62,411 nucleotides of DNA from a bacterium (GTDB lineage Bacteria > Verrucomicrobiota > Verrucomicrobiia > JADLBR01 > JAIBCM01). The first letter of the stretch is position 1. Each line of letters opens with the position of its first letter. The notes below the pieces were generated by a model. That model was given only the letters and a program-made list of their open reading frames with translations. It ran no database searches and was not told the origin of the DNA. Location of the stretch: assembly GCA_020049135.1 (NCBI GenBank), contig JAIFLJ010000176.1, positions 1 to 62,411 on the forward strand, given 5' to 3'. Positions 6,038-42,178 of this stretch are shown here, in pieces. The translations under genes were made by a program, and so were the position numbers.

Positions 6038-6083
6038 AATGAAGAAAAAAGGGTTGTTGAACGAGGCGCAGCCTCTATGGGGT

Positions 6084-6108
6084 GCGGGAATTGATTCCCG
6101 CTCGTTTT
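6084..6108 (+). terminator. Rho-independent terminator candidate after the GT11 gene
   Basis: GCGGGAA-ttga-TTCCCGC (7-bp stem, 6084-6101) followed by TCGTTTT. Confidence 0.5.
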
Positions 6109-6316
6109 AGGCGAAGCGGCAAAGCCGCATTTCTATTTTCGCCGCCAGGGTCATCCGAGAAAAACGATCCCTCTACGGCTCAAGCGGCTGGGGGCGAAAG
6201 AGAGAGGCGAGGGGATAAATCCCCCCGTCAAAAGCGGCGATCAATCACCGCGCTCCACAGAGCCTCTGGCTCCAAGAGGTGAAACAACCCGCGCTGTTTG
6301 ACGAAGAACCAAAAAA

Positions 6317-8430: not shown

Positions 8431-8434
8431 AAAT

Positions 8435-9742: not shown

Positions 9743-9746
9743 AGGC

Positions 9747-10961
9747 ATGAAAAAAATTCTGTTTATCACATGGGATGGAGCTAAGCAGGGCTATGTCCAA
9801 AGCCTGTTTGTCCCTATTTTTGTAGAGCTGAGAAAAAAAGGTTATGCCTTTGAAATCATGCAGTTCACTTGGGCTGATCAGGAGGAACGAGGGCAGATCA
9901 AAAAAGTGGCGGAAGAAAACGGGATTCCTTTCGTCAGCTATTTCGCCCCAGTGCGATTTAAACATTTGAGCACCCTTGCCATGATGCTGGGAGGAGCCTT
10001 TTTGATCTGGAGATACTGTCGCGAGAAAGAAATAGGCATCGTGATGCCTCGCAGCACCATTCCGGCGGCGATGACGCTGCTGGCCAAAATCCTGTTGTCA
10101 AATATCCGAGTGGTCTTCGATGCGGATGGATTCATGCAGGATGAAAGGGTGGATTTTGCTGGGTGGAGCGAGTCGGGTTTCACTTACCGTTTTTTCCGTT
10201 GGATTGAGGCGGCGATGACGAAGCAATCTTGGAGGGTGTTGACCCGGAGTGAATTTGCCAAAGTGACGCTCCTGAAAAGATCGGGCGGATGCTGCGATGA
10301 TCGGAGTGTTTTTGTGGTAGGCAACGGGAGGGATGAAGCGCAGTTTCAGCCTTTTGATGCGGGGCAGCGCGAGAAAACAAGGCAGATGCTTGGCATTCCT
10401 TTGGAAGCCCCTTTGATCGTTTATGCTGGAGGGTTGGGGGTTCAATACTGTCCCGAAGAAATGGCCGCTTTTTTCTCCCATGTAATTCGCTTTCGTCCTG
10501 AGGCTCATTTGCTTGTTTTGAGCGCTCAGACGAAGAGATTAGAACCTTTGCTGGTTGCAAAGGGTTTGCAGGCGCACTGCCATTTTCGGTATTGTGCTCC
10601 TAGCGAAGTCCCCTCCATGCTGGCTTTGGGCGATTTGGGGCTGGCTTTCCGCAGACAAACTTTTTCCATGAAAGCCGTGTTCCCGATCAAAATAGGAGAA
10701 TATTTGCTTTGTGGTCTTCCTGTGATTTCAACCACGGGAATTGGAGATATTGATTTGTTTTTGAGAGGGAGTCAGGAAGCTTTTTTGATGGAGCACTTGG
10801 AGGATTCTGCTCTTGTCAGGGCAGCCGAATGGTTTGTGAATTTTGTTTTGCCCAACAGGGAGTCTTGTCGCCGATCGGCCAGAGAAACTGGTCTGAAGTA
10901 TTTTTCTCTCAATCAGACAGTGGATCAATACGCAGCGGCTTTTCAAGCGTGTGAAGAATGA
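9747..10961 (+). CDS. GT-B fold glycosyltransferase (GT4-like)
   Basis: N-terminal KKILFITWDG and C-terminal KIGEYLLCGLPVISTTGIGD are reminiscent of GT-B enzymes. Confidence 0.6.
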   Translation: MKKILFITWDGAKQGYVQSLFVPIFVELRKKGYAFEIMQFTWADQEERGQIKKVAEENGIPFVSYFAPVRFKHLSTLAMMLGGAFLIWRYCREKEIGIVMPRSTIPAAMTLLAKILLSNIRVVFDADGFMQDERVDFAGWSESGFTYRFFRWIEAAMTKQSWRVLTRSEFAKVTLLKRSGGCCDDRSVFVVGNGRDEAQFQPFDAGQREKTRQMLGIPLEAPLIVYAGGLGVQYCPEEMAAFFSHVIRFRPEAHLLVLSAQTKRLEPLLVAKGLQAHCHFRYCAPSEVPSMLALGDLGLAFRRQTFSMKAVFPIKIGEYLLCGLPVISTTGIGDIDLFLRGSQEAFLMEHLEDSALVRAAEWFVNFVLPNRESCRRSARETGLKYFSLNQTVDQYAAAFQACEE

Positions 10962-11047
10962 ATAGGTTTTCTATCAAATAGCGTGTTTTTTAGGGAGAGT
11001 CATGTCATTGCGGAAAGGGAAATGCGTGGGACGCAAAAGCAGCGCGG

Positions 11048-11100
11048 GCGTTGCGCCTTGGTTGGCGGTGAAAGGCCAACGCATCTTGTTTCATATTATT
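11048..11100 (+). terminator. Rho-independent terminator candidate
   Basis: GCGTTG-c-GCCTT...AAGGC-CAACGC (11-bp interrupted stem, 11048-11082) followed by the T-rich atcttgtttcatattatttc. Confidence 0.5.
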
Positions 11101-11126
11101 TCAGAGCGACTCCTAAGTGAGAAGGA

Positions 11127-11154
11127 TTGACAAATGTCAGATCTGACATAATGT
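11127..11154 (+). promoter_or_regulatory. Sigma70-like promoter with overlapping 16-bp perfect palindrome (HigBA operator candidate)
   Basis: TTGACA (11127-11132), then 16 nt, then TAATGT (11149-11154). The palindrome ATGTCAGATCTGACAT (11134-11149) fills the spacer. Confidence 0.5.
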
Positions 11155-11485
11155 GGAGAGTGTGAGCAGACCTTTACGGTGGTTGCATGGTGAGGTAAAG
11201 ACACCTCCTATGGGGCTGAGTGCTCGTCGTGAAATGGGGTTGCTATTGAGGCGTGTGCAAGAAAGAGAGAATCTATCCCTCCCCCATTCTCGTCCGATGC
11301 CAGTGATGGGGAGCCGATGCTATGAAATGAGGGTGAACGATGACAACAAGACTTGGCGGCTGGTGTATAGGATAGATGGAGATGCTGTGGTGATATTGGA
11401 GGTTTTTGAGAAAAAGACATCCCAGACGCCGAAGCATGTCATAGAGAAGTGCAAGCAGAGGTTGAAACAATACGGTTTGAGGTGA
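11153..11485 (+). CDS. higB: HigB/Gp49-like (RelE/ParE superfamily) toxin
   Basis: RPLRWLHGEVKTPP...CYEMRVNDDNKTWRLVYRIDGDAVVILEVFEKKTSQTPKHVIEKCKQRLKQY matches the phage Gp49/HigB-type toxin pattern. The toxin lies upstream of an HTH antitoxin. Confidence 0.65.
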   Translation: MESVSRPLRWLHGEVKTPPMGLSARREMGLLLRRVQERENLSLPHSRPMPVMGSRCYEMRVNDDNKTWRLVYRIDGDAVVILEVFEKKTSQTPKHVIEKCKQRLKQYGLR

Positions 11486-11787
11486 TGATGAAAAAGATAG
11501 GAAAAGGATGGGTGGAAGGTGAGGTTGAAGATTTTTTGAATCTATCGCTCGCCGATGTAGAGTATATCGAAACGCGGATGGCATTAAGTCGTTTGTTGAG
11601 GGAAGAGAGGAGAAAAAAAAAGATGACCCAAGGAGAGATGGCGGAAAAATTGCACACCAGCCAATCGCGTGTGGCAAAGATGGAGAGGTGCGATCCGAGC
11701 GTTTCTGTGGATTTGCTTTTACGATCATTGTTTGGGTTTGGGATCAAGCGCAAAGATTTGGGGTTCCTCACTACTTCGCGTGGATAA
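11485..11787 (+). CDS. higA: XRE-family HTH antitoxin (HigA-like)
   Basis: MTQGEMAEKLHTSQSRVAKMERCDPSVSVDLLLRSL is a Cro/C1 HTH. The start overlaps the toxin stop by 1 nt. Confidence 0.75.
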   Translation: MMKKIGKGWVEGEVEDFLNLSLADVEYIETRMALSRLLREERRKKKMTQGEMAEKLHTSQSRVAKMERCDPSVSVDLLLRSLFGFGIKRKDLGFLTTSRG

Positions 11788-12201
11788 GTGTAGTAAGTAG
11801 AACGACAAAAGTCATGACGCACAAGTTCAGATTTCCTAACCCACGGGGCTGATTTTTTTAAAAAAGAGAATTGAGAATGGCACTTTTGGAGTGTGGATTG
11901 GGAAATCGGGCATGGTAGCACAGTGCGTCTCGCCTGTGTTCCAACAGACTCCAAAGCAGGGATGAATGCGGCTCCCTCAGAGCTGAAAAACGGATACCAA
12001 TGACTCAAAAGATTGTCGCACGACCTGCTAGGAAACGGGCAAAAAACATTTTATATTGGTAGAGACAGTTAATCAGTATAGCATCGCACTCAATAACAGA
12101 AATGGAAAAGAAGCCGACCATTAAAAACGGATAGGCAATCAGTTTTTTGTTGGATGAAAAATAAAAGTGTGACAGCATTAAATGTGAAATAAAGGAGAGC
12201 C

Positions 12202-12999
12202 ATGTTTAACTATTTGGAAAAAATAAAAGAAGCAGTCACCTCAGAGATTATAAAAAGAGGAAGACTCAAGCATGTTTTTAAAAATAAATTGACCAATTCA
12301 GGAAAAGATGATTTTAATTGGAAACACTACAATGATCATTATCAAGAGGAGTTAAGGGTCATTCAGCGCATATACTCACTTAAATTGAGTGAGGGAGATT
12401 ATGTGTTTGAAAAGGGTAGCCTAGCAAGATCAAAAGAAATTCTTCCTCTCCATCATAATCATAGGCTTTTGTATGAAACGATATGTTTGTTAAGTCCTTT
12501 AAGTGTGGCGGAGGTGGGTTGTGGGGGCGGGGACCATCTTTACAATCTTAGTGTGCTTATGCCGGAAACAAAATTAATTGGTTATGATCGTTCTCTCGAA
12601 CAGATAAGTTTTGCATTAGAACGATCGCCCAATTTAAGAGATAAACTATACGAATTTGACATGACAATGCCTTTCTCGGATGAGCTTAAGATATCCGACA
12701 TTGCTTATACCCAAGCGGTTATTATGCATATTAAAACAGGTAATGGTCATTTGGTTGCATTATCAAACATTTTTAAAATAGCTGCAAAGCAAGTGGTTTT
12801 GATGGAAAATTGGACACAGCATTCATTTTTCGATGATATCAAACTTCTTTTTAAGAAAAAAATGATTCCATGGAAACAAATATTTTTCTATTTCAGGAGA
12901 GCCCCAGAAAATAAAAACAAGCCTCATTTGATGGTGGTTTCATCAACACCCTTGTCTTTGGAACCTTTGGAGTCTTATTCGCAATTATTGTGTTTGTAA
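12202..12999 (+). CDS. Class I SAM-dependent methyltransferase (AT-rich cassette)
   Basis: Motif I VAEVGCGGGDHL. The gene is visibly AT-rich: spot counts of two 60-nt lines gave 27% and 35% GC. Confidence 0.7.
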   Translation: MFNYLEKIKEAVTSEIIKRGRLKHVFKNKLTNSGKDDFNWKHYNDHYQEELRVIQRIYSLKLSEGDYVFEKGSLARSKEILPLHHNHRLLYETICLLSPLSVAEVGCGGGDHLYNLSVLMPETKLIGYDRSLEQISFALERSPNLRDKLYEFDMTMPFSDELKISDIAYTQAVIMHIKTGNGHLVALSNIFKIAAKQVVLMENWTQHSFFDDIKLLFKKKMIPWKQIFFYFRRAPENKNKPHLMVVSSTPLSLEPLESYSQLLCL

Positions 13000-13043: not shown

Positions 13044-13934
13044 GTGAATAAATATCATCCTGTTTTCTTGACTTGGCATTTGCTGGGTCGTTTTTGCCCT
13101 CGAGTGCTATGGGCCCGGTATGAAAGGCGGTGTCGGGCGATGGGGTTTCAGCGGTCTTATTTTTTACTCTCTTTTGATTGTGACACCGAGAGGGATATCG
13201 AAGTGGTCGAAGCCGTTCACAAGAAAATAGAGGCGTTGGGTATTTCGCCCATTTACGCCGTTCCGGGCGAATTGCTGAAGAAAGGGGAGGGTGTTTATTC
13301 GCGAATAGCTTCGCGTGGTGCCGAGTTTATCAATCACGGCTATTACACGCATACCCTTTATGTGAGGAAAACGCGAACTTATGCTGGGGTCTTTTTTTAC
13401 GATCAGTTACCTCTCGATGTGATAGGGGAAGATGTTTTGAGAGGCCATGAAGCTATTCAGGAGGTGCTGGGTGTCGAGGCGAAGGGGTTCCGGACGCCAC
13501 ATTTTGGCAGTTACCAAAAAACAGCCCACTTCAAACAGTTGCATTCGATGCTTTTGAGGATGAATTATTCGTATTCGTCTTCTTCGATGCCTTTGACCGC
13601 TTTCCAAAAGGGTCCTGTTTGGCGTAGAGAAAGGGGAGGTTTCCCAGAAATCCCAGTGATGGGGAGGTGGAGTTCACCGTTGAAAATTTTAGATTCGTGG
13701 AGTTTTCGCTTTGCGCCGAGGAGAACGGTGGGCGAGCGCGATTACGCTAGGGAGTTTCGCGCTTTAACGGATTATTTTGTCAGGCAAGGGAAGCCAGGAA
13801 TCTTTAATATTTACGCAGATCCTTCGCAAATTGAGGATTGGCCGCTTTTTTTTGATTTGCTCAGGGAAGTCTCATCCATTGCGTTGCCTTCCTATCAGAG
13901 TCTTTTAAGCGAAGTAGATGCCATTAAGCATTGA
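13044..13934 (+). CDS. Polysaccharide deacetylase-like (CE4/NodB-like) protein
   Basis: LLSFDCDTERD and INHGYYTH loosely resemble NodB motifs 1 and 2. The start codon is GTG. Confidence 0.45.
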   Translation: MNKYHPVFLTWHLLGRFCPRVLWARYERRCRAMGFQRSYFLLSFDCDTERDIEVVEAVHKKIEALGISPIYAVPGELLKKGEGVYSRIASRGAEFINHGYYTHTLYVRKTRTYAGVFFYDQLPLDVIGEDVLRGHEAIQEVLGVEAKGFRTPHFGSYQKTAHFKQLHSMLLRMNYSYSSSSMPLTAFQKGPVWRRERGGFPEIPVMGRWSSPLKILDSWSFRFAPRRTVGERDYAREFRALTDYFVRQGKPGIFNIYADPSQIEDWPLFFDLLREVSSIALPSYQSLLSEVDAIKH

Positions 13935-14031
13935 CAGGTTTGGACGCGCCTACATTGTTTGGGCGCAGGGCGAAAACGAGGATCCCAAAAAAAGCTGGAT
14001 CCGATAAAAAATCATTGGAGGGAGAGGCATT

Positions 14032-14829
14032 ATGAAAGCGGTGATTCTTGCGGGAGGGTTGGGGACGCGCATCAGCGAGGAAACGGGGACGCGACCGAAG
14101 CCGATGATCGAGATTGGGGGGAGACCTGTTCTCTGGCATATCATGAAAATCTATTCGGCTCACGGGATCAACGATTTCGTTATCTGTGTCGGATACAAGG
14201 GCTACCTCATCAAAGAATATTTTGCTAACTATTCCCTTCATCTTTCAGATGTGACCTTTGACATGAGGGAAAACAGCATGGAGGTGCATGAGAAATTTGC
14301 GGAGCCTTGGCGAGTGACGATTGTGGATACTGGCGACAGCACCGAAACAGGCGGGCGTTTGAAGCAGGTTAGAAAATATGTGGGGGAAGAGACTTTTTGC
14401 CTCACTTACGGGGATGGTGTTTCCGATGTCAACATAGCCCAAACGATCGAGGAACATCGCCGAAAGAAGCCTGCCTTGGCAACGGTGACGGCGGTCCAGC
14501 CTCCCGGGCGGTTCGGGGCTTTGGAAATGGAGGGAGACAAGGTGGTTCGTTTTCAAGAGAAGCCGCATGGCGACGGCGTTTGGATCAACGGCGGATTTTT
14601 TGTTTTGGAGCCTCAGGTGTTTGATTATATCGAAGGGAACCACATCAAATGGGAATGCGAACCGCTTCAACGGTTGGCCAGAGAAAATCAACTCAACGCT
14701 TACTATCATCGGGGTTTCTGGCAACCGATGGACACTTTGAGGGAGAAGAATCTTTTGGAAGAATTATGGGCGCAAGGCAGAGCGCCTTGGAAGGTTTGGG
14801 GCGTAGCCCAAGAGGGTTTAAATGTTTAA
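14032..14829 (+). CDS. rfbF: Glucose-1-phosphate cytidylyltransferase
   Basis: [64 protein letters not shown] is the canonical RfbF N-terminus. Confidence 0.9.
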
Positions 14830-14845
14830 GGGTTGAAAGGTTGAA

Positions 14846-15227
14846 GTGAACGGAGACCAAGTTTTTGCATTTGAAAAATTGAGGGTTTGGGAAGAATCCA
14901 GAGCTTGGGTAAAAACGGTTTATCTGCTGACACAAAATTTTCCTGATCGTGAGAAATTTGGAATGGTGTCGCAGATTAATCGGGCTTCTATCTCGGTGCC
15001 CACCAATCTCGCCGAAGGCTCAGCAAAAAAAATCATTAAAGGATCAGGCTCATTTTACCAATTTAGCTTATTCACCTCTTATGGAATGTATGAACTTGTT
15101 GATTCTTGTTTTTGGCCAGAATTATTTTTCAGAAAAATGCTTGAAAGAACAGCGGAGCTTGATAAGGGGTCTTTCATTGCAGATGAACGCTCTTCACCAA
15201 TCGCAAGTCCAACGATCAGGACGCTAG
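14846..15227 (+). pseudogene. Four-helix-bundle protein (23S rRNA intervening-sequence protein family), frameshifted in an A8 run
   Basis: The N-terminal half (FEKLRVWEESRAWVKTVYLLTQNFPDREKFGMVSQINRASISVPTNLAEGSAKK) is in the frame of 14846. The C-terminal half (SLKDQAHFTNLAYSPLMECMNLLILVFGQNYFSEKCLKEQRSLIRGLSLQMNALHQS) is in the frame of ORF 14949..15227. The switch is at A8 (15025-15032), and removing one A restores a 126-aa protein. Confidence 0.7.
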
Positions 15228-15266
15228 ACTCAACTTTTAAACCTTTAAACTCTTCAACCTTTCTAT

Positions 15267-16370
15267 ATGGGGATATTTAATAAAAAAAGAGTGTTGGTGA
15301 CTGGTCACACGGGCTTCAAGGGCACATGGCTTTGCGAATGGCTTCTCTCTTTAGGCGCGGAGGTGGTCGGGCTTGCCTTGGATCCGCCCACGGAGCCTTC
15401 GTTGTTCAATCAAATTGGGCTGGGAGGACGGCTCCAAGATATTCGCGGGGATATCCGTGATTCAGAAGGGGTGAAAAAAACAGTTTTAGAAATTGCACCA
15501 GATTTTATATTTCATCTCGCCGCCCAACCACTGGTGCGCGAGTCATATCAAAAGCCAGTGGAAACTTACGAGACGAATGTCATGGGCACTGTTCATGTTC
15601 TTGAAGCTTTGCGAGCCTATGAAGGTTCTTGCGTGGCGATCATGATCACCACGGACAAGTGTTACGAAAACAGGGAATGGATGCATGGCTATCGGGAGGA
15701 AGATCCACTTGGGGGCTATGATCCTTACAGCTCCAGCAAAGCCGCAGCGGAGATTGTGGTGGCGGCTTATCGGAGATCTTTTTTTAAAGAGGGAAAAAAA
15801 GCGGTCGCCAGTGCGCGTGCTGGGAATGTGATTGGTCCTGGAGACTGGGCCAAAGATCGCATTGTGCCCGATTGCGTCAGGGCACTCCAACAAAAAGAAG
15901 TGGTTCAAGTGAGGAATCCTCATGCTACCCGTCCTTGGCAGCATGTGCTAGAACCTTTGGGAGGATACCTTTCTCTTGCGGCGCATTTGAGCGATTCTCT
16001 TTCTAAAGGGGATCACGCCAAGTTGTCTGGGTTAGCTTCCGCTTTCAATTTTGGACCCAACGCAGAATCGAATCGCCCTGTTCGATGTTTGGTGGAAGAA
16101 ATCCTGCACCACTGGCCTGGGCAGTGGAAAGACACTTCAGACCCTCGTTCTGTGCATGAGGCCAGCTTGCTTCACTTGACTATTGATAAGGCTCGTCATT
16201 TGCTTGGCTGGCATCCCGCTTGGAATTTTCAGGAGACGATTCAAAAAACGGCAGAAGGTTATCAGGTACTTTATCGAGAAACCGCTCAGGAAGCCTGTCG
16301 CCAAATGGTGCTTGGGCAGATCCGGGAATACCAACAGAAGTCCAATCTGGTATTCAGGGAAGACGGTTGA
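15267..16370 (+). CDS. rfbG: CDP-glucose 4,6-dehydratase
   Basis: KRVLVTGHTGFKGTWLCEWLLSLGAEVVG and YSSSKAAAE (YxxxK), an RfbG-type extended SDR. Confidence 0.9.
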   Translation: MGIFNKKRVLVTGHTGFKGTWLCEWLLSLGAEVVGLALDPPTEPSLFNQIGLGGRLQDIRGDIRDSEGVKKTVLEIAPDFIFHLAAQPLVRESYQKPVETYETNVMGTVHVLEALRAYEGSCVAIMITTDKCYENREWMHGYREEDPLGGYDPYSSSKAAAEIVVAAYRRSFFKEGKKAVASARAGNVIGPGDWAKDRIVPDCVRALQQKEVVQVRNPHATRPWQHVLEPLGGYLSLAAHLSDSLSKGDHAKLSGLASAFNFGPNAESNRPVRCLVEEILHHWPGQWKDTSDPRSVHEASLLHLTIDKARHLLGWHPAWNFQETIQKTAEGYQVLYRETAQEACRQMVLGQIREYQQKSNLVFREDG

Positions 16371-16417
16371 CAAAAATAGTCCTGTAAAGTAGTTTCATCA
16401 ATGAGGTTTCAACAAAA

Positions 16418-16657
16418 ATGAAGACCATTACGGCCACAAACGCCAACCGACATTTCCAAAAGGTTTTGAGGGAGGTTTCTCGTGGAGAAGTTTTTACCGT
16501 TCTTTCACGGGGCAAAAAGGTGGCGTCCATTGTGCCAGCATCCCAAGAAGCCGAAAGGAGGCGGGAATCGGCCAAACATTCCCTGCTGAAAAGGCTTGCT
16601 GGGGAAAAAATGGTTTTGGGAGTTTCTTGGAATCGTGATGAGCTTTATGATCGTTAA
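16418..16657 (+). CDS. Phd/YefM-like antitoxin of a VapBC-type pair
   Basis: MKTITATNANRHFQKVLREVSRGEVFTVLSRGKKVASIVP. It lies immediately upstream of a PIN gene. Confidence 0.7.
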   Translation: MKTITATNANRHFQKVLREVSRGEVFTVLSRGKKVASIVPASQEAERRRESAKHSLLKRLAGEKMVLGVSWNRDELYDR

Positions 16658-16707
16658 AGATTATGGAAATTTCGCAAAGATTTTAAATCGGGTTTTAATA
16701 AATAGCG

Positions 16708-17163
16708 ATGCGAGTTGCTCTTGACACGAATATTCTGGCCTACGCCGAAGGGATTAACGATTCTGCGCGATGTATTCATGCCAGAAAAATTATAGAAAGA
16801 CTTTCAGAAATTGAAACAATGATTCCCGCCCAAGTTTTGGGAGAACTTTTTCGTGTGCTTGCCAGAAAGGCGGGTCGGGAGGTGGGGGCGGCTCGCCAGG
16901 CTGTGCTTTCATGGGCAGATAGCTTTCTTGTTGTGGATTCTACTTGGGATAGTTTCGTTATGGCGTTCGATTTGGTTGAGACGCAATCCATGAGCTTTTG
17001 GGACGCTTTGATTTTTTCTGTAGCTGTTAAGAATCGTTGTAGAATATTGTTGAGCGAAGATATGAAAACAGGTTTGACTTGGTGTGGAACCACCATCGTC
17101 AACCCATTTGCCGCCCCAGAGGATCCGCTCTTGAAGTTGGCGATGGAGAATGGATCGCTTTAA
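16708..17163 (+). CDS. vapC: PIN-domain toxin (VapC)
   Basis: MRVALDTNILAYAEG (first acidic residue) and FWDALIFSVAVKNRCRILLSEDM, typical PIN motifs. Confidence 0.8.
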   Translation: MRVALDTNILAYAEGINDSARCIHARKIIERLSEIETMIPAQVLGELFRVLARKAGREVGAARQAVLSWADSFLVVDSTWDSFVMAFDLVETQSMSFWDALIFSVAVKNRCRILLSEDMKTGLTWCGTTIVNPFAAPEDPLLKLAMENGSL

Positions 17164-17405
17164 CGAAGGTGAGAAAGGTGCTAGATCCTCGCTTTCTTGC
17201 GAAGAGCGTGAATGGTTACAGAGTGGGGAGGATCCGCGTAAATTGCTACAAAAGGCAACTCTGGAAAACTGGTTGGGCGGTCTTGAATCGTCGGAGACTT
17301 TTAAAGAAACGCCCGTTTTCATTCAGAAATCTTTGCGGCATGAATGGGATTGATTTTGTTTTCGACACCAATATCTTGTGGGTCATTAAAAAATGGAGGA
17401 ATTAA
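17150..17405 (+). pseudogene. Decayed second TA module: antitoxin-like ORF plus 21-aa PIN N-terminal stub
   Basis: ORF 17150..17353 overlaps by 14 nt a short ORF (ATG 17340) encoding MNGIDFVFDTNILWVIKKWRN-stop. FVFDTNIL is a PIN N-terminal signature, and the rest of the domain is missing. Confidence 0.3.
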
Positions 17406-17406
17406 A

Positions 17407-18633
17407 ATGAACTGTCGCTTTGACGGGCAGCCGCTCGCGCATGAATTTGTGGATTTGGGATACAGCCCCGTTTCCAATAGTTTTAGGAGTCAGGAAGATC
17501 AAGAGACCCCCGAGGTTTATTATCCCCTCAAACTTTGGGTGAGTGAGCGGACTTTTTTGGTGCAAACAGGGGAATACAAAAAGGCGGCAGAGATTTTTTC
17601 AGGAGATTATGTCTATTTCTCATCCTATTCCAAAAGTTGGCTTAGGCATGCCTCCCAATATGTGGAAAAGATGGTCGAAAAATTTGGGCTGAATGCGACT
17701 TCACAAGTAGTTGAAATCGCCTCCAACGACGGTTATCTGCTCCAGTATTTCAAACAGAAAAACATCCCTTGCTACGGTGTGGAGCCTTCTGGGAGTGTGG
17801 CGGGTGCTGCTCGGGAAAAAGGGATAGAAACGCTGGAATTATTTTTTGGGGTAGAGACGGCCACAAAGTTGGCTGAGGGCGGGAGGAAGGCCGATCTGCT
17901 CTTGGGAAATAATGTTTTGGCGCATGTCCCCGATTTAAACGATTTCGTGAAAGGGTTGAAAATATTGCTTAAACCGCAAGGGGTAGTGACGATGGAATTT
18001 CCGCATTTGATGCAGCTCGTGGAACAGAACCAGTTCGACACGATTTATCACGAGCATTTTTCCTATTTTTCATTTTATACGGTTTGCCAAGTTTTTCGTT
18101 CGCATGGTTTGGAGATGTTTGATGTCGAGGAAATCCCGACCCATGGAGGCTCGCTTCGGATTTATGCCGCTCATGAGCAGGACAAGTCAAAAACCGTCTC
18201 GCCCTCCGTGGCTGCTCTTCTTTTGAAAGAGCGAGAAAAAGGGATGCAAACTCTGGATTATTACGGGCATTTTCAGCCAAAAGTGGAAAAAGTGAAGCGC
18301 GATTTTCTGAAGTTTTTATTGGATCAAAGGAGTCAGGGCAAAACGGTTGCCGCCTATGGGGCAGCCGCCAAGGGAAACACCTTGTTAAATTATTGCGGAG
18401 TTCGGCGCGATTTGATCTCTTTTGTGTGCGACGCTTCTCCGCACAAGCAGGGAAAATTTTTGCCTGGCAGTCACATCCCTGTTTTTGATCCTGTTGAAAT
18501 CGAAAAAAGGAAGCCCGATTTTGTGGTGATCTTACCTTGGAACATCCGCGAGGAAATCATGGAACAACTGTCCGTCATCAGGCAGTGGGGCGGGAAATTT
18601 GTCGTCGCAGTGCCCTGTTTGCAAACCCTATGA
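17407..18633 (+). CDS. NDP-hexose C-methyltransferase (TylCIII-like; Zn-binding N-domain + SAM MT + C-terminal domain)
   Basis: MNCRFDGQPLAHEFVDLGYSPVSNSF, EIASNDGYLL, IYHEHFSYFS and PTHGGSLRIYA. GGAGGA lies 7 nt upstream of the ATG at 17407. Confidence 0.75.
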   Translation: MNCRFDGQPLAHEFVDLGYSPVSNSFRSQEDQETPEVYYPLKLWVSERTFLVQTGEYKKAAEIFSGDYVYFSSYSKSWLRHASQYVEKMVEKFGLNATSQVVEIASNDGYLLQYFKQKNIPCYGVEPSGSVAGAAREKGIETLELFFGVETATKLAEGGRKADLLLGNNVLAHVPDLNDFVKGLKILLKPQGVVTMEFPHLMQLVEQNQFDTIYHEHFSYFSFYTVCQVFRSHGLEMFDVEEIPTHGGSLRIYAAHEQDKSKTVSPSVAALLLKEREKGMQTLDYYGHFQPKVEKVKRDFLKFLLDQRSQGKTVAAYGAAAKGNTLLNYCGVRRDLISFVCDASPHKQGKFLPGSHIPVFDPVEIEKRKPDFVVILPWNIREEIMEQLSVIRQWGGKFVVAVPCLQTL

Positions 18634-19160
18634 TTTTTCGAGAAACTCGGCTGAGCGGATGTTTCGTCATCGAGCTTGAAAAAAGAGCCGATGAAAGAGG
18701 GTGGTTTGCAAGGACTTGGTGCCGCGATGAGTTTTCAAAAAACGGCATCGAAGTTTTTTGGGTGCAGGGGAACAGTTCGTTCAATAGCCAAAAAGGGACT
18801 TTGCGGGGGATGCACTTTCAGCTCGCTCCCTGTGGCGAGGCAAAACTGATTCGGTGTTGTCGTGGTCGGGCGTATGATGTCGCCCTAGATTTAAGACCTG
18901 AATCGCCGACATTCAAGCAATGGACAAGTGTGGAACTTGCGCCAGACAACGGGAAAATGATTTTTATTCCAGAGGGTTTTGCCCACGGGTTTCAAACTCT
19001 CGAAGACGGCACCGAACTGTTGTATCAAATGTCCGAAAACCACCATCCGCAACTTGCTTCTGGCGTTCGATGGAACGATGCCGCATTCGGTATCCTGTGG
19101 CCGTTGGCCGACCCGATCTTATCACCGAAAGACCAAGCTTACCCGGATTACGAGGGATGA
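18630..19160 (+). CDS. NDP-4-keto-6-deoxyhexose 3,5-epimerase (RmlC-like cupin)
   Basis: ERGWFARTWCRDEF..QGNSSFNSQKGTLRGMHFQ...GFAHGFQTL. ATGA overlap with the upstream gene. Confidence 0.8.
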   Translation: MIFRETRLSGCFVIELEKRADERGWFARTWCRDEFSKNGIEVFWVQGNSSFNSQKGTLRGMHFQLAPCGEAKLIRCCRGRAYDVALDLRPESPTFKQWTSVELAPDNGKMIFIPEGFAHGFQTLEDGTELLYQMSENHHPQLASGVRWNDAAFGILWPLADPILSPKDQAYPDYEG

Positions 19161-20038
19161 AAATTTTTGTCACAGGCGGTTCTGGGTATGTGGGATCGTA
19201 TGTCGTGCTGGCTCTTTTGGCCAAAGGGCATGATGTGGCCGTTTTGTTGCAGGGTGGCGACAAGGCATCGCGACTTGATGCGGTCCGCAATAATATCCGC
19301 ATGGTGGACGGAGATTTGGGCTCGTCCGATTCTTACGCAGATTTTTTGAGGGGATGGAAACCAGATGCCGCGATAAGTCTGGCGTGGTATGCCGAGCCGG
19401 GCAAGTATTTGAATGCCATAACAGAGAATCTGGCTTCTCTCGACGGCAGTTTGAAACTCGCGCAAGCGCTTTTTCAAGTCGGGTGCCGCCGTGTGGTCAT
19501 GGCGGGCACCTGCGCGGAATACGACATGGACGCGGGATTTTTAAAAGAGGATGGCCTAGCCGCTCCGACTACCGTCTATGGCGAAACCAAGCTGGCCATG
19601 TGCCGGCTGGGTCTGCGCTTGGCGGCGGAACAAAAGGCCGATTTCGTTTGGGCTCGTCTTTTTTATCTGTTTGGCGGCAGCGAAAATGCAGGACGGCTAG
19701 TTCCTGATTTCAAAAAAACAATTTCGGAAGGACGGGTTTTTAAAGCCACGAAAGGGGAGCAAGTTAGGGACTATATCCACATCAAGGATGCCGCCGAGGC
19801 GTTTGTGTTGTTGGCGGAGTGTGGTGCTGGCGGCATTTACAATGTTTGTTCGGGAGTCCCATTGAGGCTGCGCGATTTTTTGCTGGCGATGGCATCGGAG
19901 ATGGGGAAAAAGGATGGCATGGATTTCGGCGCGGTCCCGTATAGGGCTTGGGAGCCTATGTTTGTTTGTGGCGATAATAGTAAGCTGAAATCTCTCGGGT
20001 GGGTTCCGCGTGATCCGCTCGATTGTCTTTTGGATTAG
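19157..20038 (+). CDS. NAD(P)-dependent SDR, probable NDP-4-ketohexose reductase
   Basis: MKIFVTGGSGYVGSYVV (Rossmann) and YGETKLAMC (YxxxK). ATGA overlap with the epimerase gene. Confidence 0.75.
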   Translation: MKIFVTGGSGYVGSYVVLALLAKGHDVAVLLQGGDKASRLDAVRNNIRMVDGDLGSSDSYADFLRGWKPDAAISLAWYAEPGKYLNAITENLASLDGSLKLAQALFQVGCRRVVMAGTCAEYDMDAGFLKEDGLAAPTTVYGETKLAMCRLGLRLAAEQKADFVWARLFYLFGGSENAGRLVPDFKKTISEGRVFKATKGEQVRDYIHIKDAAEAFVLLAECGAGGIYNVCSGVPLRLRDFLLAMASEMGKKDGMDFGAVPYRAWEPMFVCGDNSKLKSLGWVPRDPLDCLLD

Positions 20039-20044
20039 AAAAAT

Positions 20045-22132
20045 ATGAGCGAATTAAAATCAGATGAGGTCGTTTCTCGTTTAAAAAAACTCAAAATTGG
20101 CTATGTGCCTTACAGCGAGAATTTGGACGCGCCTGGGGACAGGAGGCGTTTTGTCTATTACGCACGCAAAAATAATATTCCCTTTGAGGTGGCGGATCCG
20201 TCCAAGCGATACGATATCGTGATTCTTTCCGGATTTGCGGATTTGACCGTTTGGAGCAAATACCGTCGCGGCGTTCTGGTCTTTGATTTGATTGACTCTT
20301 ATCTGGACGAGTCCAACAACAGTTTCAAAGACACCTTTCGTGGGACGGCCAAGTGGATTTTGCGCAAACACAGATATTGGGAGATGGACTACAAAAAGAC
20401 CATCAAAGAGACCTTGTTGCAATGCCGTGCGGCCGTTTGTTGCACTGTGGAGCAGCAGCGCCTGATCAAAGAGTTTTGCCCCGAGGTGCATATCATTTTG
20501 GATATCCATAACAGCTCGACCAAGACCGTCAAAACGAGCTATGAGGCTTCTTCGCCTGTTTTCAATATCGTGTGGGAGGGGTTGCCTTACACGATGGAGA
20601 CCTTGAAGATTTTGAAAGGGCCTTTGGAAAAAATCCAAAAAACGCATCCGGTGGCTTTGCATATCATCACCGATTTGGAATATTACAAATACGCCAGAAC
20701 GGCGGGCAAAACGCTGACGCAAAAAGAAGCCGCCAAAATATTTGCCAACACCTTTTTATATTCGTGGAACGAATCCACGGTCTCTTCGATCATTACTTCT
20801 TGCGACATGGCGGTGATCCCGCTCCGCGCCAACAACGCGCTCGATTTTGGAAAACCAGAAAACAAACTGTTACTTTTTTGGCGGATGGGGATGCCTGTTT
20901 TGACATCGGATACACCTGCTTACACTAGGGCAATGGCTCGTTGTGGATCGGATATGGCCTGCGGAACAGAAGATGAGTGGGTGGAAAAACTGTTGCGCTA
21001 CATCATGAGCGCGGATGCCAGAAAAGAAGCTGCAGAAAAGGGTATGAGATATGCCTCAACAGAGCATGGAGAGGATGTCACTTTGGCGAGATGGGATAAA
21101 CTATTTTCCATATTTATGGAAAAAGGGGAAATAAATGGAAGGAGTGGCATTCATAATCCGCTTGTGGTAGAAAAGGATGTTCAAGAACCCGCATCTATTT
21201 ATGAGTTTGAAATCAGTAATAGTTTAAGGCAAAACATTGATGCACGCATTTATGATGAATGGAGAAGTCCATCATTTCGATCTGATTTGACTCCCAGGTT
21301 ATCGGTTGTGATGCCAATTTATAATGGTGAGAAATACCTAGCGGACTCTTTAAGAAGTCTCCTAGCGCAGTCTTTTGAAGATTTCGAGGTTGTTTTGGTT
21401 GACGATGGTTCGAGGGATCGTGGACCAGAAATTGTAAAATCTTTCAGCAATATTCCGATTAAGATGGTGAAGCAGATAAACGGCGGAATCGGTTCCGCAC
21501 TGAGAACTGGGTGTCAAATTGCGCGGGCAGAGTGGATTGCTCGAATGGATCAGGATGATGTTGCATTGCCAGATAGATTTCTAAAGCAAATGGCTTACCT
21601 TGAAAAAAATCCTAAAATTGGTTTGCTAGGAACAGGAGTGATTGAAATTAATAGTTTCGGAGAGGAGACAGGAAAATATATATTTCCATCAGAGAATGAT
21701 GACATAAAAAGATTGCTCATAGTCAGAAATATGTTTTTGCATCCAACAACTATTTTCAAGAAATCTATTTATGAGGAAGTCGGTGGTTACAGTTTGAACA
21801 GGGATATGCCTGAGGATTGGGATTTGTGGATTAGAATGATTGATAAGACGCAAGTGGCAAACCTGAGCGAATGCCTTTTGATGTATAGAAGACACGATAA
21901 ATCCATATCTATAGTGCGTGCCAGACATTATCAGTTTCAGGGTATTAAATTGAGGGGGAGAGCGATTCTTGAAGGTCGTTACTCTTTTTACAATTTAATT
22001 TATATCATATTTGCTTTACTGGGTTTGATTCTGCCAATGAACATAGTAGCTATGATCAGGAAGCGGATTCACAAACATTACCACTTTTATCCTAGCCGTG
22101 ATTTTCGATCAAATGATAAACCTCTGAAATGA
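20045..22132 (+). CDS. Two-domain glycosyltransferase: N-terminal GT-B-like domain fused to an AT-rich C-terminal GT2 domain with a terminal TM helix
   Basis: The N-terminal part has KPENKLLLFWRMGMPVLTSDTPAY. The C-terminal part has LSVVMPIYNGEKYLADSLRSLLAQSFEDFEVVLVDDGSRD and ARMDQDDVALPDRFLKQMAYLEKNPKIGLLGT (paralogous to 6317..7333). The C-terminal helix is FYNLIYIIFALLGLILPMNIVAMI. Confidence 0.7.
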   Translation: MSELKSDEVVSRLKKLKIGYVPYSENLDAPGDRRRFVYYARKNNIPFEVADPSKRYDIVILSGFADLTVWSKYRRGVLVFDLIDSYLDESNNSFKDTFRGTAKWILRKHRYWEMDYKKTIKETLLQCRAAVCCTVEQQRLIKEFCPEVHIILDIHNSSTKTVKTSYEASSPVFNIVWEGLPYTMETLKILKGPLEKIQKTHPVALHIITDLEYYKYARTAGKTLTQKEAAKIFANTFLYSWNESTVSSIITSCDMAVIPLRANNALDFGKPENKLLLFWRMGMPVLTSDTPAYTRAMARCGSDMACGTEDEWVEKLLRYIMSADARKEAAEKGMRYASTEHGEDVTLARWDKLFSIFMEKGEINGRSGIHNPLVVEKDVQEPASIYEFEISNSLRQNIDARIYDEWRSPSFRSDLTPRLSVVMPIYNGEKYLADSLRSLLAQSFEDFEVVLVDDGSRDRGPEIVKSFSNIPIKMVKQINGGIGSALRTGCQIARAEWIARMDQDDVALPDRFLKQMAYLEKNPKIGLLGTGVIEINSFGEETGKYIFPSENDDIKRLLIVRNMFLHPTTIFKKSIYEEVGGYSLNRDMPEDWDLWIRMIDKTQVANLSECLLMYRRHDKSISIVRARHYQFQGIKLRGRAILEGRYSFYNLIYIIFALLGLILPMNIVAMIRKRIHKHYHFYPSRDFRSNDKPLK

Positions 22133-22344
22133 TCTGTTTTATGTGCGCATGTCCTGTGGTGGAGCCCGATGATGTGGAGGGGATCGCGAGAACCCTAGAA
22201 GATTTGTTTGTGAAATGGCAAAAGGGCGTTTTGAAAGTCTCCGATGCTTTTGGTTCCGTAGCCGCAGATTACAGCATAGAGAAGACAACGGGCAAACTTC
22301 ACGAGCTTTTGGAAGAGGTTAGCTGTTTGAAGCATGGAAGATAA
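22129..22344 (+). pseudogene. C-terminal relic of a GT4-type glycosyltransferase
   Basis: The 71-aa product (..VVEPDDVEGIARTLEDLFVKWQ...AADYSIEKTTGKLHELL) looks like only the last ~60 residues of a GT4 enzyme. There is no catalytic region. Confidence 0.45.
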
Positions 22345-39870: not shown

Positions 39871-39874
39871 AAAA

Positions 39875-40852: not shown

Positions 40853-40880
40853 AATTTTAAAATCAAAATAATAAAAAAAT

Positions 40881-42152: not shown

Positions 42153-42178
42153 AAAACGATAGATTTAAAGTTGTGCGG

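What the first reader, a model, noticed from the sequence alone, without database searches (positions are those of the whole stretch)
14032..20038. Complete-looking CDP-hexose branch predicting a CDP-6-deoxy-3-C-methyl-L-hexose (vinelose-like branched sugar)
The sequence shows rfbF (Glc-1-P cytidylyltransferase), rfbG (CDP-Glc 4,6-dehydratase), a TylCIII-type C-methyltransferase, an RmlC-type 3,5-epimerase and an SDR reductase. The last three are chained by ATGA overlaps at 18630 and 19157.

By standard deoxysugar logic this order gives activation, 4,6-dehydration, C-methylation next to the 4-keto group, 3,5-epimerisation and 4-reduction. The product would be a CDP-linked 6-deoxy-C-methyl-L-hexose.

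C-methyl branched sugars are mostly known on dTDP in actinomycete antibiotics. The CDP-linked example I recall is vinelose from Azotobacter, which also carries an O-methyl group. Class I SAM methyltransferases at 12202 and 32846 could supply that modification. The product identity is inference only.
Basis: partly seen in the sequence, partly recalled or inferred. Interest (0 to 1): 0.6.

Follow-up and report, generated by a model that had tools for sequence, protein, structure and literature searches.

The report
CDP-linked C-methyl deoxyhexose sugar cassette
Five intact genes in a bacterial surface-glycan locus very probably make a CDP-activated, methyl-branched 6-deoxy sugar, but the same cassette occurs in many bacterial phyla, so this is an ordinary copy of a common pathway that has apparently never been tested biochemically.

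Summary
rfbF (14032-14829), rfbG (15267-16370), a TcaB9/MtmC-type sugar C-methyltransferase (true start 17407, to 18633), an RmlC-type epimerase (18630-19160) and an extended SDR (19157-20038) are all full length. Both ATGA overlaps are real. Two selfish inserts interrupt the series: a broken four-helix-bundle gene and a Phd/VapC toxin-antitoxin pair.

The five functions form a conserved unit. In 48 of 62 species-representative loci with a >55% identical C-methyltransferase and enough flank, all five lie within 6 kb on one strand. All 7 contexts examined for the window's SDR type show C-MT, epimerase and SDR adjacent.

The window's copy is a mosaic. rfbG and the C-MT are of one cassette type, nearest Cytophagales at 67-70%. 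The epimerase and SDR are of another type. No close orthologue was found in 30 relatives, so it was probably acquired horizontally.

A CDP-6-deoxy-C-methyl-hexose is well supported. C3 rather than C5 methylation, the L-series and the talo (vinelose) configuration remain inference.

This scan had already noted the same cassette in several other genomes. One earlier follow-up judged it common. Verdict: a new member of a known kind, of low to moderate interest.

The parts
14032..14829 (+). rfbF, glucose-1-phosphate cytidylyltransferase (265 aa)
   Evidence: TIGR02623 equivalog 454 bits against cut-off 300, model positions 1-255 of 255. E 3.9e-113 to the S. Typhi enzyme 1tzf.
14846..15280 (+). Broken four-helix-bundle (23S rRNA IVS-type) gene inserted between rfbF and rfbG; not part of the pathway
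   Evidence: PF05635 matches only profile positions 1-65 of 106. TIGR02436 scores 51 bits. The continuation lies in another frame, ORF 14949-15227.
15267..16370 (+). rfbG, CDP-glucose 4,6-dehydratase (367 aa)
   Evidence: TIGR02622 equivalog 477 bits against cut-off 278. E 5e-103 to Y. pseudotuberculosis 1rkx. The sequence shows GHTGFKG and YSSSK.
16418..17163 (+). Toxin-antitoxin insert: a 79-aa gene in the antitoxin position (16418-16657; Phd/YefM-like by eye, no family search run) and a PIN-domain VapC (16708-17163); not part of the pathway
   Evidence: PF01850 PIN E 2.7e-12. The 79-aa ORF immediately upstream is in the antitoxin position.
17407..18633 (+). NDP-hexose C-methyltransferase, TylCIII/TcaB9/MtmC type (408 aa); lacks three of the four zinc-ribbon cysteines
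   Evidence: PF08421 + PF13489 + PF08484 (228 bits). E 1.5e-78 to MtmC, 2e-71 to KijD1 and 7e-65 to TcaB9. The equivalents of TcaB9 Y76, H181, Y222, E224 and H225 are conserved. It sits in a 100/100-supported clade of 408-aa enzymes linked to rfbF and rfbG. The zinc motif is CRFD...SERT where relatives have CxxC...CxxC.
18630..19160 (+). RmlC-type NDP-4-keto-6-deoxyhexose 3,5- (or 5-) epimerase (176 aa); ATGA overlap with the methyltransferase
   Evidence: PF00908 209 bits; TIGR01221 176 bits against cut-off 156. E 3e-43 to solved RmlC structures, with the catalytic His, Lys, Tyr and Asp aligned and conserved. Overlap read.
19157..20038 (+). Extended SDR, predicted NAD(P)H-dependent 4-ketoreductase (293 aa); ATGA overlap with the epimerase
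   Evidence: PF01370 positions 1-240 of 240. The best solved relative is GDP-6-deoxy-D-lyxo-4-hexulose reductase 2pk3, E 5e-21. The sequence shows GGSGYVG and YGETK. Homologues at 44-49% identity always follow C-MT and epimerase, in 7 of 7 contexts.
20045..22132 (+). Two-domain glycosyltransferase (695 aa, C-terminal GT2) starting 7 nt after the SDR; candidate transferase for the product (inference only)
   Evidence: PF00535 GT2 at residues 420-577, E 8e-31. Position read. No homologue was found next to the cassette in the 80 related loci.

Best explanation
The five genes encode a complete nucleotide-sugar branch.

1. [quoted passage not shown]
2. RfbG converts it to CDP-4-keto-6-deoxy-D-glucose.
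3. The SAM-dependent C-methyltransferase alkylates the enolate next to the 4-keto group, most likely at C3, giving a tertiary alcohol.
4. The RmlC-type cupin inverts C5, and C3 too if it acts before methylation, which puts the sugar in the L series.
5. The SDR reduces the 4-keto group with NAD(P)H.

The product would be a CDP-6-deoxy-3-C-methyl-L-hexose. The adjacent glycosyltransferase probably adds it to a surface glycan.

Steps 1 and 2 rest on equivalog-level matches to characterised enzymes. Steps 3 to 5, their order, the site of methylation and the stereochemistry are inferred from homology and conserved gene clustering.

My odds: about 0.8 that the product is a CDP-linked C-methyl-6-deoxyhexose; about 0.55 that it is specifically a 3-C-methyl L-sugar; about 0.3 that it has the talo (vinelose-core) configuration.

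The window's cassette is a recombinant of two cassette types and was probably acquired horizontally.
For: Enzyme identity:
- RfbF and RfbG score far above the equivalog cut-offs. They match solved CDP-specific enzymes at E 1e-113 and 1e-103.
- The methyltransferase has the three-domain sugar C-MT architecture. Its best solved relatives are all C3-methyltransferases (MtmC, KijD1, TcaB9). All five TcaB9 active-site residues are conserved.
- The epimerase keeps the RmlC catalytic residues.
- The SDR has the GxxGxxG and YxxxK motifs.

Coupling and synteny:
- ATGA translational coupling links C-MT to epimerase and epimerase to SDR.
- 48 of 62 loci with a >55% identical C-MT carry rfbF, rfbG, epimerase and SDR within 6 kb. 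Only 2 carry an RmlA-like gene.
- 7 of 7 contexts of the window-type SDR show C-MT, epimerase and SDR adjacent. Six of those 7 have an rfbF homologue (47-57% identical) and a dehydratase directly upstream.

Other support:
- A characterised precedent exists for RmlC-like and SDR enzymes acting on CDP-4-keto-6-deoxy-D-glucose: C. jejuni HS:41 enzymes HS41.19 and HS41.18 (PMC12369002).
- The only E1-like gene in the window is nearer GDP-specific ColD (E 3e-56) than CDP-specific E1 (E 1e-38).
- Two of 120 SDR homologues carry the automated JGI name 'dTDP-6-deoxy-L-talose 4-dehydrogenase'. This is a weak lead for the talo configuration.
Against: - No enzyme of this C-MT clade has been assayed, as far as the paper library shows.
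- The clade is only 34-35% identical to the solved dTDP C3-methyltransferases, so neither the regiochemistry nor CDP use is shown.
- NovW, NovU and NovS use the same three enzyme types to make a 5-C-methyl sugar.
- The window's enzyme has lost three of the four zinc-ribbon cysteines.
- The operon is interrupted by a pseudogene and a toxin-antitoxin pair, so co-transcription of all five genes is not assured.
- The epimerase also passes the rmlC equivalog cut-off. The genome has RmlA and RmlB without a dedicated RmlC or RmlD in the 86% that is assembled. The epimerase and SDR might therefore also, or instead, serve dTDP sugars.
- The Tll-like name is an automated label that I did not test.
Confidence: 0.6

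Rival explanations
1. The gene set is the same but the methylation is at C5, as in noviose. The epimerase acts mainly at C3, as NovW does. The methyltransferase alkylates C5 to give a 5,5-gem-dimethyl sugar, as NovU does. The SDR then reduces C4. The product would be a CDP-5-C-methyl-6-deoxyhexose.
For: - The enzyme types RmlC-like, Methyltransf_14 C-MT and SDR are exactly those of NovW, NovU and NovS (established knowledge).
- NovW is a detectable relative of the window's epimerase, E 1.5e-27.
- Most cassettes have epimerase before C-MT, which matches the noviose reaction order.
- Nothing I could run separates C3 from C5 enzymes.
Against: - All solved relatives are C3-methyltransferases, and their five active-site residues are conserved.
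- The epimerase is much nearer true 3,5-epimerases (E 1e-43) than NovW.
- From memory, the only CDP-linked C-methyl sugar known chemically, vinelose, is 3-C-methyl. Also from memory, 5-C-methyl sugars are known only from aminocoumarin antibiotics.
Confidence: 0.12
2. The epimerase and SDR are not dedicated to the CDP branch. They complete a dTDP pathway, giving dTDP-L-rhamnose or dTDP-6-deoxy-L-talose from the product of the RmlA/RmlB pair on contig C218. Meanwhile rfbF, rfbG and the C-MT act as a three-gene unit, as in S. meliloti pSymB. In that unit the 4-keto group may be reduced by the methyltransferase itself (from memory, MtmC is bifunctional) or by another SDR. That would give a D-series C-methyl sugar.
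For: - The epimerase passes the rmlC equivalog cut-off, 176 against 156 bits.
- The genome has true RmlA (444 bits) and RmlB (481 bits), no RmlD above its cut-off, and only one other PF00908 gene, which sits in a heptose cluster.
- Some SDR homologues are named dTDP-6-deoxy-L-talose 4-dehydrogenase.
- S. meliloti has rfbF, rfbG and C-MT with no adjacent epimerase or SDR.
- MtmC is the best solved match.
Against: - ATGA coupling links C-MT, epimerase and SDR.
- In 7 of 7 contexts the nearest epimerase and SDR homologues lie directly behind a C-MT, and in 6 of 7 behind an rfbF homologue.
- RmlA-like genes are near the cassette in only 2 of 62 loci.
- The assembly is only 86% complete, so rmlC and rmlD may simply be unassembled.
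- A dual role (promiscuity towards both nucleotides) is not excluded and would be compatible with the best explanation.
Confidence: 0.1
3. The cassette is a decaying, recently acquired mosaic that no longer yields a product, because the inserts (pseudogene and toxin-antitoxin pair) uncouple rfbF and rfbG from the last three genes, or because loss of the zinc site inactivates the methyltransferase.
For:
- Three of the four zinc-ligand cysteines are lost.
- No orthologue was found in 30 relatives.
Against: - All five ORFs are intact and full length.
- Every gene, inserts included, is on the same strand.
- The cysteine-less form is shared with a Cytophagales-type metagenome locus (L100) and Thermoflexibacter ruber at 67-69% identity. 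That argues for a functional sub-clade under selection.
Confidence: 0.05

Closest known systems
The same rfbF-rfbG-epimerase-C-MT-SDR cassette in other genomes (Chitinophagaceae, Cytophagales, Pyrinomonadaceae, Syntrophaceae, Spirochaetota, a PVC-group MAG; variants on S. meliloti pSymB SMb21416-21418 and on the ~32-kb Brachyspira hyodysenteriae plasmid)
   Same: The same five functions are present. The C-MT is 61-70% identical, rfbF 53-65% and the epimerase 44-55%. In public records the methyltransferase is annotated only as 'class I SAM-dependent methyltransferase' or 'NDP-hexose 3-C-methyltransferase' (PMC4053727).
   Different: - Most have the order epimerase, C-MT, SDR, with an SDR only about 30% identical to the window's. 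About half add a CmcI-type O-methyltransferase and a second Methyltransf_14 protein.
- The window has the order C-MT, epimerase, SDR. Its epimerase and SDR are of the second cassette type (57% and 49% identical to L103 and L104). It lacks the O-methyltransferase.
- S. meliloti has only three of the genes.
- Brachyspira has a radical-SAM protein in the position where other cassettes have rfbG, and adds an aminotransferase and an acetyltransferase.
dTDP-hexose 3-C-methyl pathways of actinomycete antibiotics (TylCIII/TylK/TylCII, EryBIII, MtmC, EvaC/EvaD, TcaB9, KijD1)
   Same: The methyltransferase fold and domain order are the same, and the catalytic Tyr, His, Tyr, Glu and His are conserved. 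The logic is the same: an RmlC-like epimerase and a 4-ketoreductase act on a 4-keto-6-deoxy intermediate.
   Different: - The nucleotide is CDP (inferred from rfbF, rfbG and synteny), not dTDP.
- No 2-deoxygenation or 3-amination genes are present, so C2-OH and C3-OH are kept.
- Identity is only 34-35%, and the enzyme sits in a separate, strongly supported clade.
- The zinc ribbon is degenerate in the window's enzyme.
- The context is a surface glycan, not a secondary metabolite.
C. jejuni HS:41 CDP-6-deoxy-L-altrose / CDP-D-fucose pathway (HS41.21, .20, .19, .18; Simons, Narindoshvili & Raushel 2025, PMC12369002)
   Same: This is a biochemically proven route: CTP + Glc-1-P to CDP-glucose, then CDP-4-keto-6-deoxy-D-glucose, then a 3,5-epimerase, then an NADPH C4-reductase. 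Four of the five steps proposed here match it.
   Different: It has no C-methyltransferase, and it adds a pyranose/furanose mutase. I did not compare the sequences directly because they are not held in the tools.
CDP-vinelose (CDP-6-deoxy-3-C-methyl-2-O-methyl-L-talose) of Azotobacter vinelandii (Okuda, Suzuki & Suzuki, late 1960s; cited from memory, no paper in the searchable library)
   Same: It is the only CDP-linked C-methyl-branched 6-deoxyhexose known chemically. From D-glucose, its configuration needs exactly C3 alkylation, C5 inversion and talo-face C4 reduction, which is the enzyme set found here.
   Different: - To my knowledge, the genes for vinelose have not been assigned.
- The window has no CmcI-type O-methyltransferase next to the cassette.
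- The talo configuration is untested.
- I could not reach the A. vinelandii genome with these tools.
Noviose pathway (NovT/NovW/NovU/NovS) and the virenose proposal for Coxiella burnetii (PMC3539893)
   Same: The enzyme families are the same: RmlC-like, Methyltransf_14 C-MT and SDR.
   Different: Noviose is dTDP-linked and methylated at C5. Virenose is proposed to be GDP- or TDP-linked and of the D-gulo configuration.

Membership tests
Glucose-1-phosphate cytidylyltransferase (RfbF/DdhA, TIGR02623) | Full-length match above the curated equivalog cut-off and close similarity to a characterised member | tested here: met
   454 bits against cut-off 300, model positions 1-255 of 255. E 3.9e-113 to S. 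Typhi RfbF 1tzf over 255 residues.
Glucose-1-phosphate cytidylyltransferase (RfbF/DdhA, TIGR02623) | CTP (not dTTP, UTP or GTP) as the nucleotide donor | not testable with these tools
   Needs an enzyme assay. The model for dTTP-specific RmlA scores only 24 bits.
CDP-glucose 4,6-dehydratase (RfbG/DdhB, TIGR02622) | Full-length match above the equivalog cut-off, plus the SDR NAD-binding Gly motif and the catalytic YxxxK | tested here: met
   477 bits against cut-off 278. E 5e-103 to 1rkx. GHTGFKG and YSSSK are visible in the translation. The dTDP-glucose dehydratase model scores only 99 bits.
TylCIII/TcaB9/MtmC-type NDP-hexose C-methyltransferase | Three-domain architecture: N-terminal zinc-ribbon domain (PF08421), class I SAM domain, C-terminal PF08484 domain | tested here: met
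   PF08421 positions 1-62 of 62 (56.5 bits), PF13489, and PF08484 positions 1-160 of 160 (227.5 bits).
TylCIII/TcaB9/MtmC-type NDP-hexose C-methyltransferase | Active-site residues equivalent to TcaB9 Tyr76, His181, Tyr222, Glu224 and His225 (roles recalled from Bruender & Holden) | tested here: met
   All five are identical in the phmmer alignment to 3ndi. I counted positions by hand, with an offset of +2 in the chain numbering.
TylCIII/TcaB9/MtmC-type NDP-hexose C-methyltransferase | Cys4 zinc site (CxxC...CxxC) in the N-terminal domain | tested here: not met
   The window has C-R-F-D ... S-E-R-T, so only one Cys remains. The same is true of L100 and Thermoflexibacter. Other clade members (Pyrinomonadaceae, PVC, Syntrophaceae, Chitinophaga) and MtmC, KijD1 and TcaB9 keep all four.
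TylCIII/TcaB9/MtmC-type NDP-hexose C-methyltransferase | Methyl transfer to C3 of a dTDP-4-keto-6-deoxyhexose | not testable with these tools
   Identity to the solved C3 enzymes is 34-35%, and the enzyme is in a separate clade. No NovU-type C5 reference sequence was available. Gene context points to a CDP substrate.
RmlC (dTDP-4-dehydrorhamnose 3,5-epimerase, TIGR01221 / PF00908) | Score above the equivalog cut-off and the catalytic His / Lys / Tyr / Asp set | tested here: met
   176 bits against cut-off 155.75. GMHFQ, EAKLIR, LLYQMS and SPKDQ align with the corresponding residues of a solved RmlC.
RmlC (dTDP-4-dehydrorhamnose 3,5-epimerase, TIGR01221 / PF00908) | Acts on the dTDP-linked substrate within an rmlABCD pathway | tested here: inconclusive
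   The gene is translationally coupled to a C-MT behind rfbF and rfbG, not to rmlA, B or D. Its homologues sit in the same CDP-type context. Yet the genome has RmlA and RmlB and no other RmlC above the cut-off in an 86%-complete assembly.
NDP-4-keto-6-deoxyhexose 4-reductase (extended SDR; RmlD or Tll types) | Membership of the RmlD family (TIGR01214 / PF04321) | tested here: not met
   PF04321 scores 24 bits, below the cut-off of 27. There is no TIGR01214 match at this gene in the whole-genome search.
NDP-4-keto-6-deoxyhexose 4-reductase (extended SDR; RmlD or Tll types) | Tll-type (talo-forming) reductase | tested here: inconclusive
   The only evidence is an automated JGI name on 2 of 120 homologues at 46-49% identity. 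No Tll reference sequence or structure was available. The best solved relative is the GDP-6-deoxy-D-lyxo-4-hexulose reductase 2pk3 at E 5e-21.
CDP-vinelose pathway | A 2-O-methyltransferase accompanying the C-methyl sugar genes | tested here: not met
   A CmcI-type O-methyltransferase is present in 31 of 62 related loci. In this genome its only match is on contig C199, in a heptose cluster. The window's methyltransferases at 12202 and 32798 are generic class I enzymes.
CDP-vinelose pathway | Product is 6-deoxy-3-C-methyl-L-talose on CDP | not testable with these tools
   Needs LC-MS and NMR of the enzymatic product or of the glycan.

The most novel reading that the evidence does not exclude
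This cassette family, present in many phyla and annotated only as 'class I SAM-dependent methyltransferase' plus generic epimerase and reductase, is the unassigned genetic basis of CDP-vinelose-type sugars (6-deoxy-3-C-methyl-L-talose, with or without 2-O-methyl). 3-C-methyl-branched deoxyhexoses would then be a common component of environmental bacterial surface glycans, not an Azotobacter curiosity. The window would carry a zinc-free, recombinant variant, in an organism that has three separate C-methyl-sugar pathways (CDP-hexose, NDP-heptose and an amino sugar).
Probability: 0.3. Interest if true: 0.45.

Novelty: new member of a known kind. Interest (0 to 1): 0.3.

Why it matters
If the prediction holds, the cassette gives a gene-level route to CDP-activated 3-C-methyl-6-deoxy-L-hexoses. 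That sugar class has been known chemically since the 1960s (from memory), but I found no assigned or assayed enzymes for it. It would allow better annotation of thousands of 'class I SAM-dependent methyltransferase' genes in glycan loci. It would also add a CDP-specific C-methyltransferase to the glycoengineering toolbox. This window adds little beyond another example. Its particular points are the mosaic make-up, the loss of the zinc-ribbon cysteines and the co-occurrence of three C-methyltransferase pathways in a roughly 3.4-Mb genome.

Tried and rejected
- Literature. 'vinelose' gave 0 papers. TylC3/TcaB9/NovU/branched-chain sugar combinations gave 0. Searches on C-methyltransferase with CDP-glucose, and on 3-C-methyl sugar names, gave only the Coxiella virenose proposals, a Sinorhizobium gene table and natural-product papers. 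I found no assayed CDP-dependent C-methyltransferase.
- C3 or C5 by phylogeny. Only MtmC, KijD1 and TcaB9 (all C3) could be taken from tool output. The window's clade is an outgroup to them, so the tree does not decide the regiochemistry. I ran no further search on fetching NovU-type sequences, because the clade would most likely fall outside all actinomycete enzymes anyway.
- A 3,6-dideoxy branch. Rejected. The E1-like gene 2620-3798 is 392 aa and nearer ColD (E 3e-56) than E1 (E 1e-38). I ran no search for an E3-type (DdhD/AscD) reductase.
- Link to Azotobacter vinelandii. 
- Promoter and terminator scan of 13800-22300. Nothing above shuffled expectation: 2 promoter-like sites against 9.9 expected, and 13 terminator-like sites against 10.5.
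I found no match to the 12202 gene in the 80 related loci. The 32798 gene was not tested that way. Neither is CmcI-like.
- Organism identity. Not determined.

Full report
**Observation**

- RfbF (14032-14829) scores 454 bits on the Glc-1-P cytidylyltransferase equivalog TIGR02623 (cut-off 300). It matches the solved S. Typhi enzyme at E 4e-113.
- RfbG (15267-16370) scores 477 bits on TIGR02622 (cut-off 278). It matches the Yersinia CDP-glucose 4,6-dehydratase at E 5e-103.
- The methyltransferase carries the full PF08421 / SAM-MT / PF08484 architecture.
- The next gene is a full-length PF00908 cupin that passes the rmlC equivalog cut-off, 176 against 156 bits.
- The last gene is a full-length extended SDR.
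- I read both ATGA overlaps, at 18630 and 19157, in the sequence.

Two corrections apply. First, the methyltransferase starts at ATG 17407, giving 408 aa like its homologues. Second, the series is interrupted. A truncated four-helix-bundle gene lies at 14846-15280, where the Pfam match covers only positions 1-65 of 106. A toxin-antitoxin pair lies at 16418-17163: a 79-aa gene in the antitoxin position (Phd/YefM-like by eye; I ran no family search on it) followed by a PIN-domain toxin.

**The enzymes**

The methyltransferase's best solved relatives are MtmC (E 1.5e-78), KijD1 and TcaB9. All three are sugar C3-methyltransferases. I counted positions in the printed alignment to TcaB9. The equivalents of Tyr76, His181, Tyr222, Glu224 and His225 are all identical in the window's protein. 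The roles of these residues are from my memory of the TcaB9 papers.

Three of the four zinc-ribbon cysteines are replaced: CRFD...SERT where relatives have CxxC...CxxC. A Cytophagales-type metagenome locus and Thermoflexibacter ruber share this loss. Other members of the same clade do not.

The epimerase aligns with a solved RmlC, and the catalytic His, Lys, Tyr and Asp are conserved. It is nearer true RmlCs (E 1e-43) than WbcA (E 8e-34), NovW (E 1.5e-27) or EvaD (E 3e-23).

The SDR has the GGSGYVG and YGETK motifs. It is not an RmlD-family protein. Its best solved relative is a GDP-6-deoxy-D-lyxo-4-hexulose reductase.

**Is the grouping meaningful?**

I scanned one genome per GTDB species with the methyltransferase. 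This returned 80 loci at 61-70% identity. Most are Bacteroidota, with Pyrinomonadaceae, Syntrophaceae, Spirochaetota and a PVC-group MAG also represented.

Of the 62 loci with enough flanking sequence, 48 carry rfbF, rfbG, an RmlC-like gene and an SDR within 6 kb on the same strand. In 46 of them the order is rfbF, rfbG, epimerase, C-MT, SDR. Only 2 have an RmlA-like gene nearby. Thirty-one also carry a CmcI/rhamnosyl-O-methyltransferase family gene.

The window's SDR is only about 30% identical to the SDR of that cassette type. Its own homologues (44-49% identical) were examined in seven metagenome or genome contexts. All seven show C-MT, epimerase and SDR adjacent, five of them in exactly the window's order. 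Six have an rfbF homologue (47-57% identical) and a dehydratase directly upstream. Three add a CmcI-type or Methyltransf_24 methyltransferase after the SDR.

The five functions therefore form a conserved pathway unit that exists in at least two lineages. Gene order differs between them, so it says nothing about reaction order.

**The window's copy**

It is a mosaic. rfbG (42% identical) and the C-MT (68%) resemble the first cassette type. The epimerase (57%) and SDR (49%) resemble the second type, whose own C-MT is only 40% identical to the window's. rfbF is about equally close to both (55% against 53-54%).

In a maximum-likelihood tree the C-MT falls in a 100/100-supported clade of 408-aa enzymes linked to rfbF and rfbG. 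That clade is separate from the actinomycete dTDP enzymes, to which it is 34-35% identical.

None of 30 relatives of the host genome has a match above 39% identity. That set includes four genomes of the same family. The nearest sequences are from Cytophagales, so horizontal acquisition is likely. This fits a locus studded with toxin-antitoxin and defence inserts.

**Rivals tested**

- A 3,6-dideoxy branch is unlikely. The only E1-like gene (2620-3798) is ColD-sized and nearer ColD than E1.
- A dTDP role for the epimerase and SDR cannot be excluded.
  - The assembly is 86% complete. It has true RmlA (444 bits) and RmlB (481 bits) on contig C218, among housekeeping genes. It has no RmlD above cut-off and only one other PF00908 gene.
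  - Two SDR homologues carry an automated 'dTDP-6-deoxy-L-talose 4-dehydrogenase' label.
  - The translational coupling and the 7-of-7 context result argue that the primary role is in the C-methyl pathway.
- C5 methylation, as in noviose, uses the same three enzyme types. Nothing I could run excludes it. The conserved C3-type active site and the chemistry of the only known CDP-linked C-methyl sugar make C3 more likely.

**Comparison with what is known**

- The closest characterised chemistry for steps 1, 2, 4 and 5 is the C. jejuni HS:41 route to CDP-6-deoxy-L-altrose. There an RmlC-like 3,5-epimerase and an NADPH C4-reductase were shown to act on CDP-4-keto-6-deoxy-D-glucose (PMC12369002).
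- Step 3 has precedents only on dTDP.
- The library holds no assay of a CDP-dependent C-methyltransferase.
- The ddhA, ddhB and 'NDP-hexose 3-C-methyltransferase' trio of S. meliloti pSymB is listed in a comparative-genomics table (PMC4053727). I confirmed it at 51% identity, without an adjacent epimerase or SDR.
- The Brachyspira hyodysenteriae ~32-kb plasmid carries an amino-sugar variant.
- From memory, vinelose (6-deoxy-3-C-methyl-2-O-methyl-L-talose on CDP) would need exactly this enzyme set plus an O-methyltransferase. The window lacks the CmcI-type O-methyltransferase.

**Verdict**

The regiochemistry and stereochemistry remain unproven, the O-methylation idea is unsupported, and the inference of reaction order from gene order is invalid.

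The cassette is common. Earlier notes of this scan flagged it in several other genomes, and one follow-up (e1-693468) already concluded that it is shared by hundreds of species. My synteny survey agrees independently.

I class this as a new member of a known kind and score interest at about 0.3. Its value lies in pointing at a widespread, unassayed enzyme clade rather than in this particular locus.

Noticed in passing
G000 contig C199 (locus L086) 5320-12902, minus strand: A second branched-sugar module built on an NDP-heptose. It contains a nucleotidyltransferase fused to a GmhB-like phosphatase, an SDR, an RmlC-like epimerase (133 bits, below the rmlC cut-off), another SDR, a third C-methyltransferase (29% identical to the window's), an HddA-like heptose kinase and a rhamnosyl-O-methyltransferase-like gene. 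This suggests a C-methylated, O-methylated (deoxy)heptose.
   Followed up: partly
window 36296-44088: A second C-methyltransferase paralogue (40881-42152, 32% identical). It sits in a block with an NDP-sugar dehydrogenase, a hexapeptide acetyltransferase, a DegT aminotransferase, a GT2, an SDR and a PglK-like ABC flippase. The roughly 3.4-Mb genome therefore encodes three Methyltransf_14 sugar C-methyltransferases.
   Followed up: partly
window 17407-17610 (N-terminal domain of the C-methyltransferase): Three of the four zinc-ribbon cysteines are lost (CRFD...SERT). The loss is shared with a Cytophagales-type metagenome locus (L100) and Thermoflexibacter ruber, but not with other members of the same clade. 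Overall identity stays at 67-69%, which suggests a functional zinc-free sub-clade.
   Followed up: partly
G000 contig C218 (locus L108) 9485-11474, minus strand: True rmlB (481 bits) and rmlA (444 bits) lie beside ribD, ribE and lpxK with no rmlC or rmlD. No RmlD-family gene in the assembly reaches its cut-off. The best is window 46102-47037 at 67 bits.
   Followed up: partly
loci L100 9068-10895; L109 6956-8862; L111 6971-7738: In both cassette types the SDR is often followed by a Methyltransf_14 protein lacking the zinc domain (359-381 aa, with a C2185-like N-terminus) and by a CmcI/rhamnosyl-O-methyltransferase. In L100, L101, L102 and L109 an ABC_tran (Wzt-like) ATPase lies directly upstream of rfbF. 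The sugar might be a chain-terminating cap of an ABC-transporter-dependent glycan; this is speculation.
   Followed up: no
locus L107 (Brachyspira hyodysenteriae plasmid pZH1261) 4530-12370: A plasmid-borne variant: rfbF, a radical SAM protein (in the position where other cassettes have rfbG), epimerase, C-MT (53% identical), a DegT aminotransferase, an acetyltransferase, an SDR and a second methyltransferase. This predicts an N-acetylated amino C-methyl sugar.
   Followed up: no
locus L106 (S. meliloti pSymB-type replicon) 5151-8224: rfbF, rfbG and a C-MT form a three-gene unit with no adjacent epimerase or reductase, next to an AraC regulator. The 4-keto group must be reduced by a distant enzyme or by the methyltransferase itself.
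   Followed up: no
window 14846-15280 and 16418-17405: Selfish inserts lie at the gene junctions of the cassette: a frameshifted four-helix-bundle gene and a Phd/VapC pair. A further short PIN-like remnant lies just before the methyltransferase start (FVFDTNIL within ORF 17079-17405).
   Followed up: partly
30 relatives of G000 (G001-G030): No relative has a C-methyltransferase more than 39% identical to the window's, while Cytophagales sequences reach 67-70%. Together with the mosaic make-up, this points to horizontal acquisition and recombination of cassette halves.
   Followed up: partly
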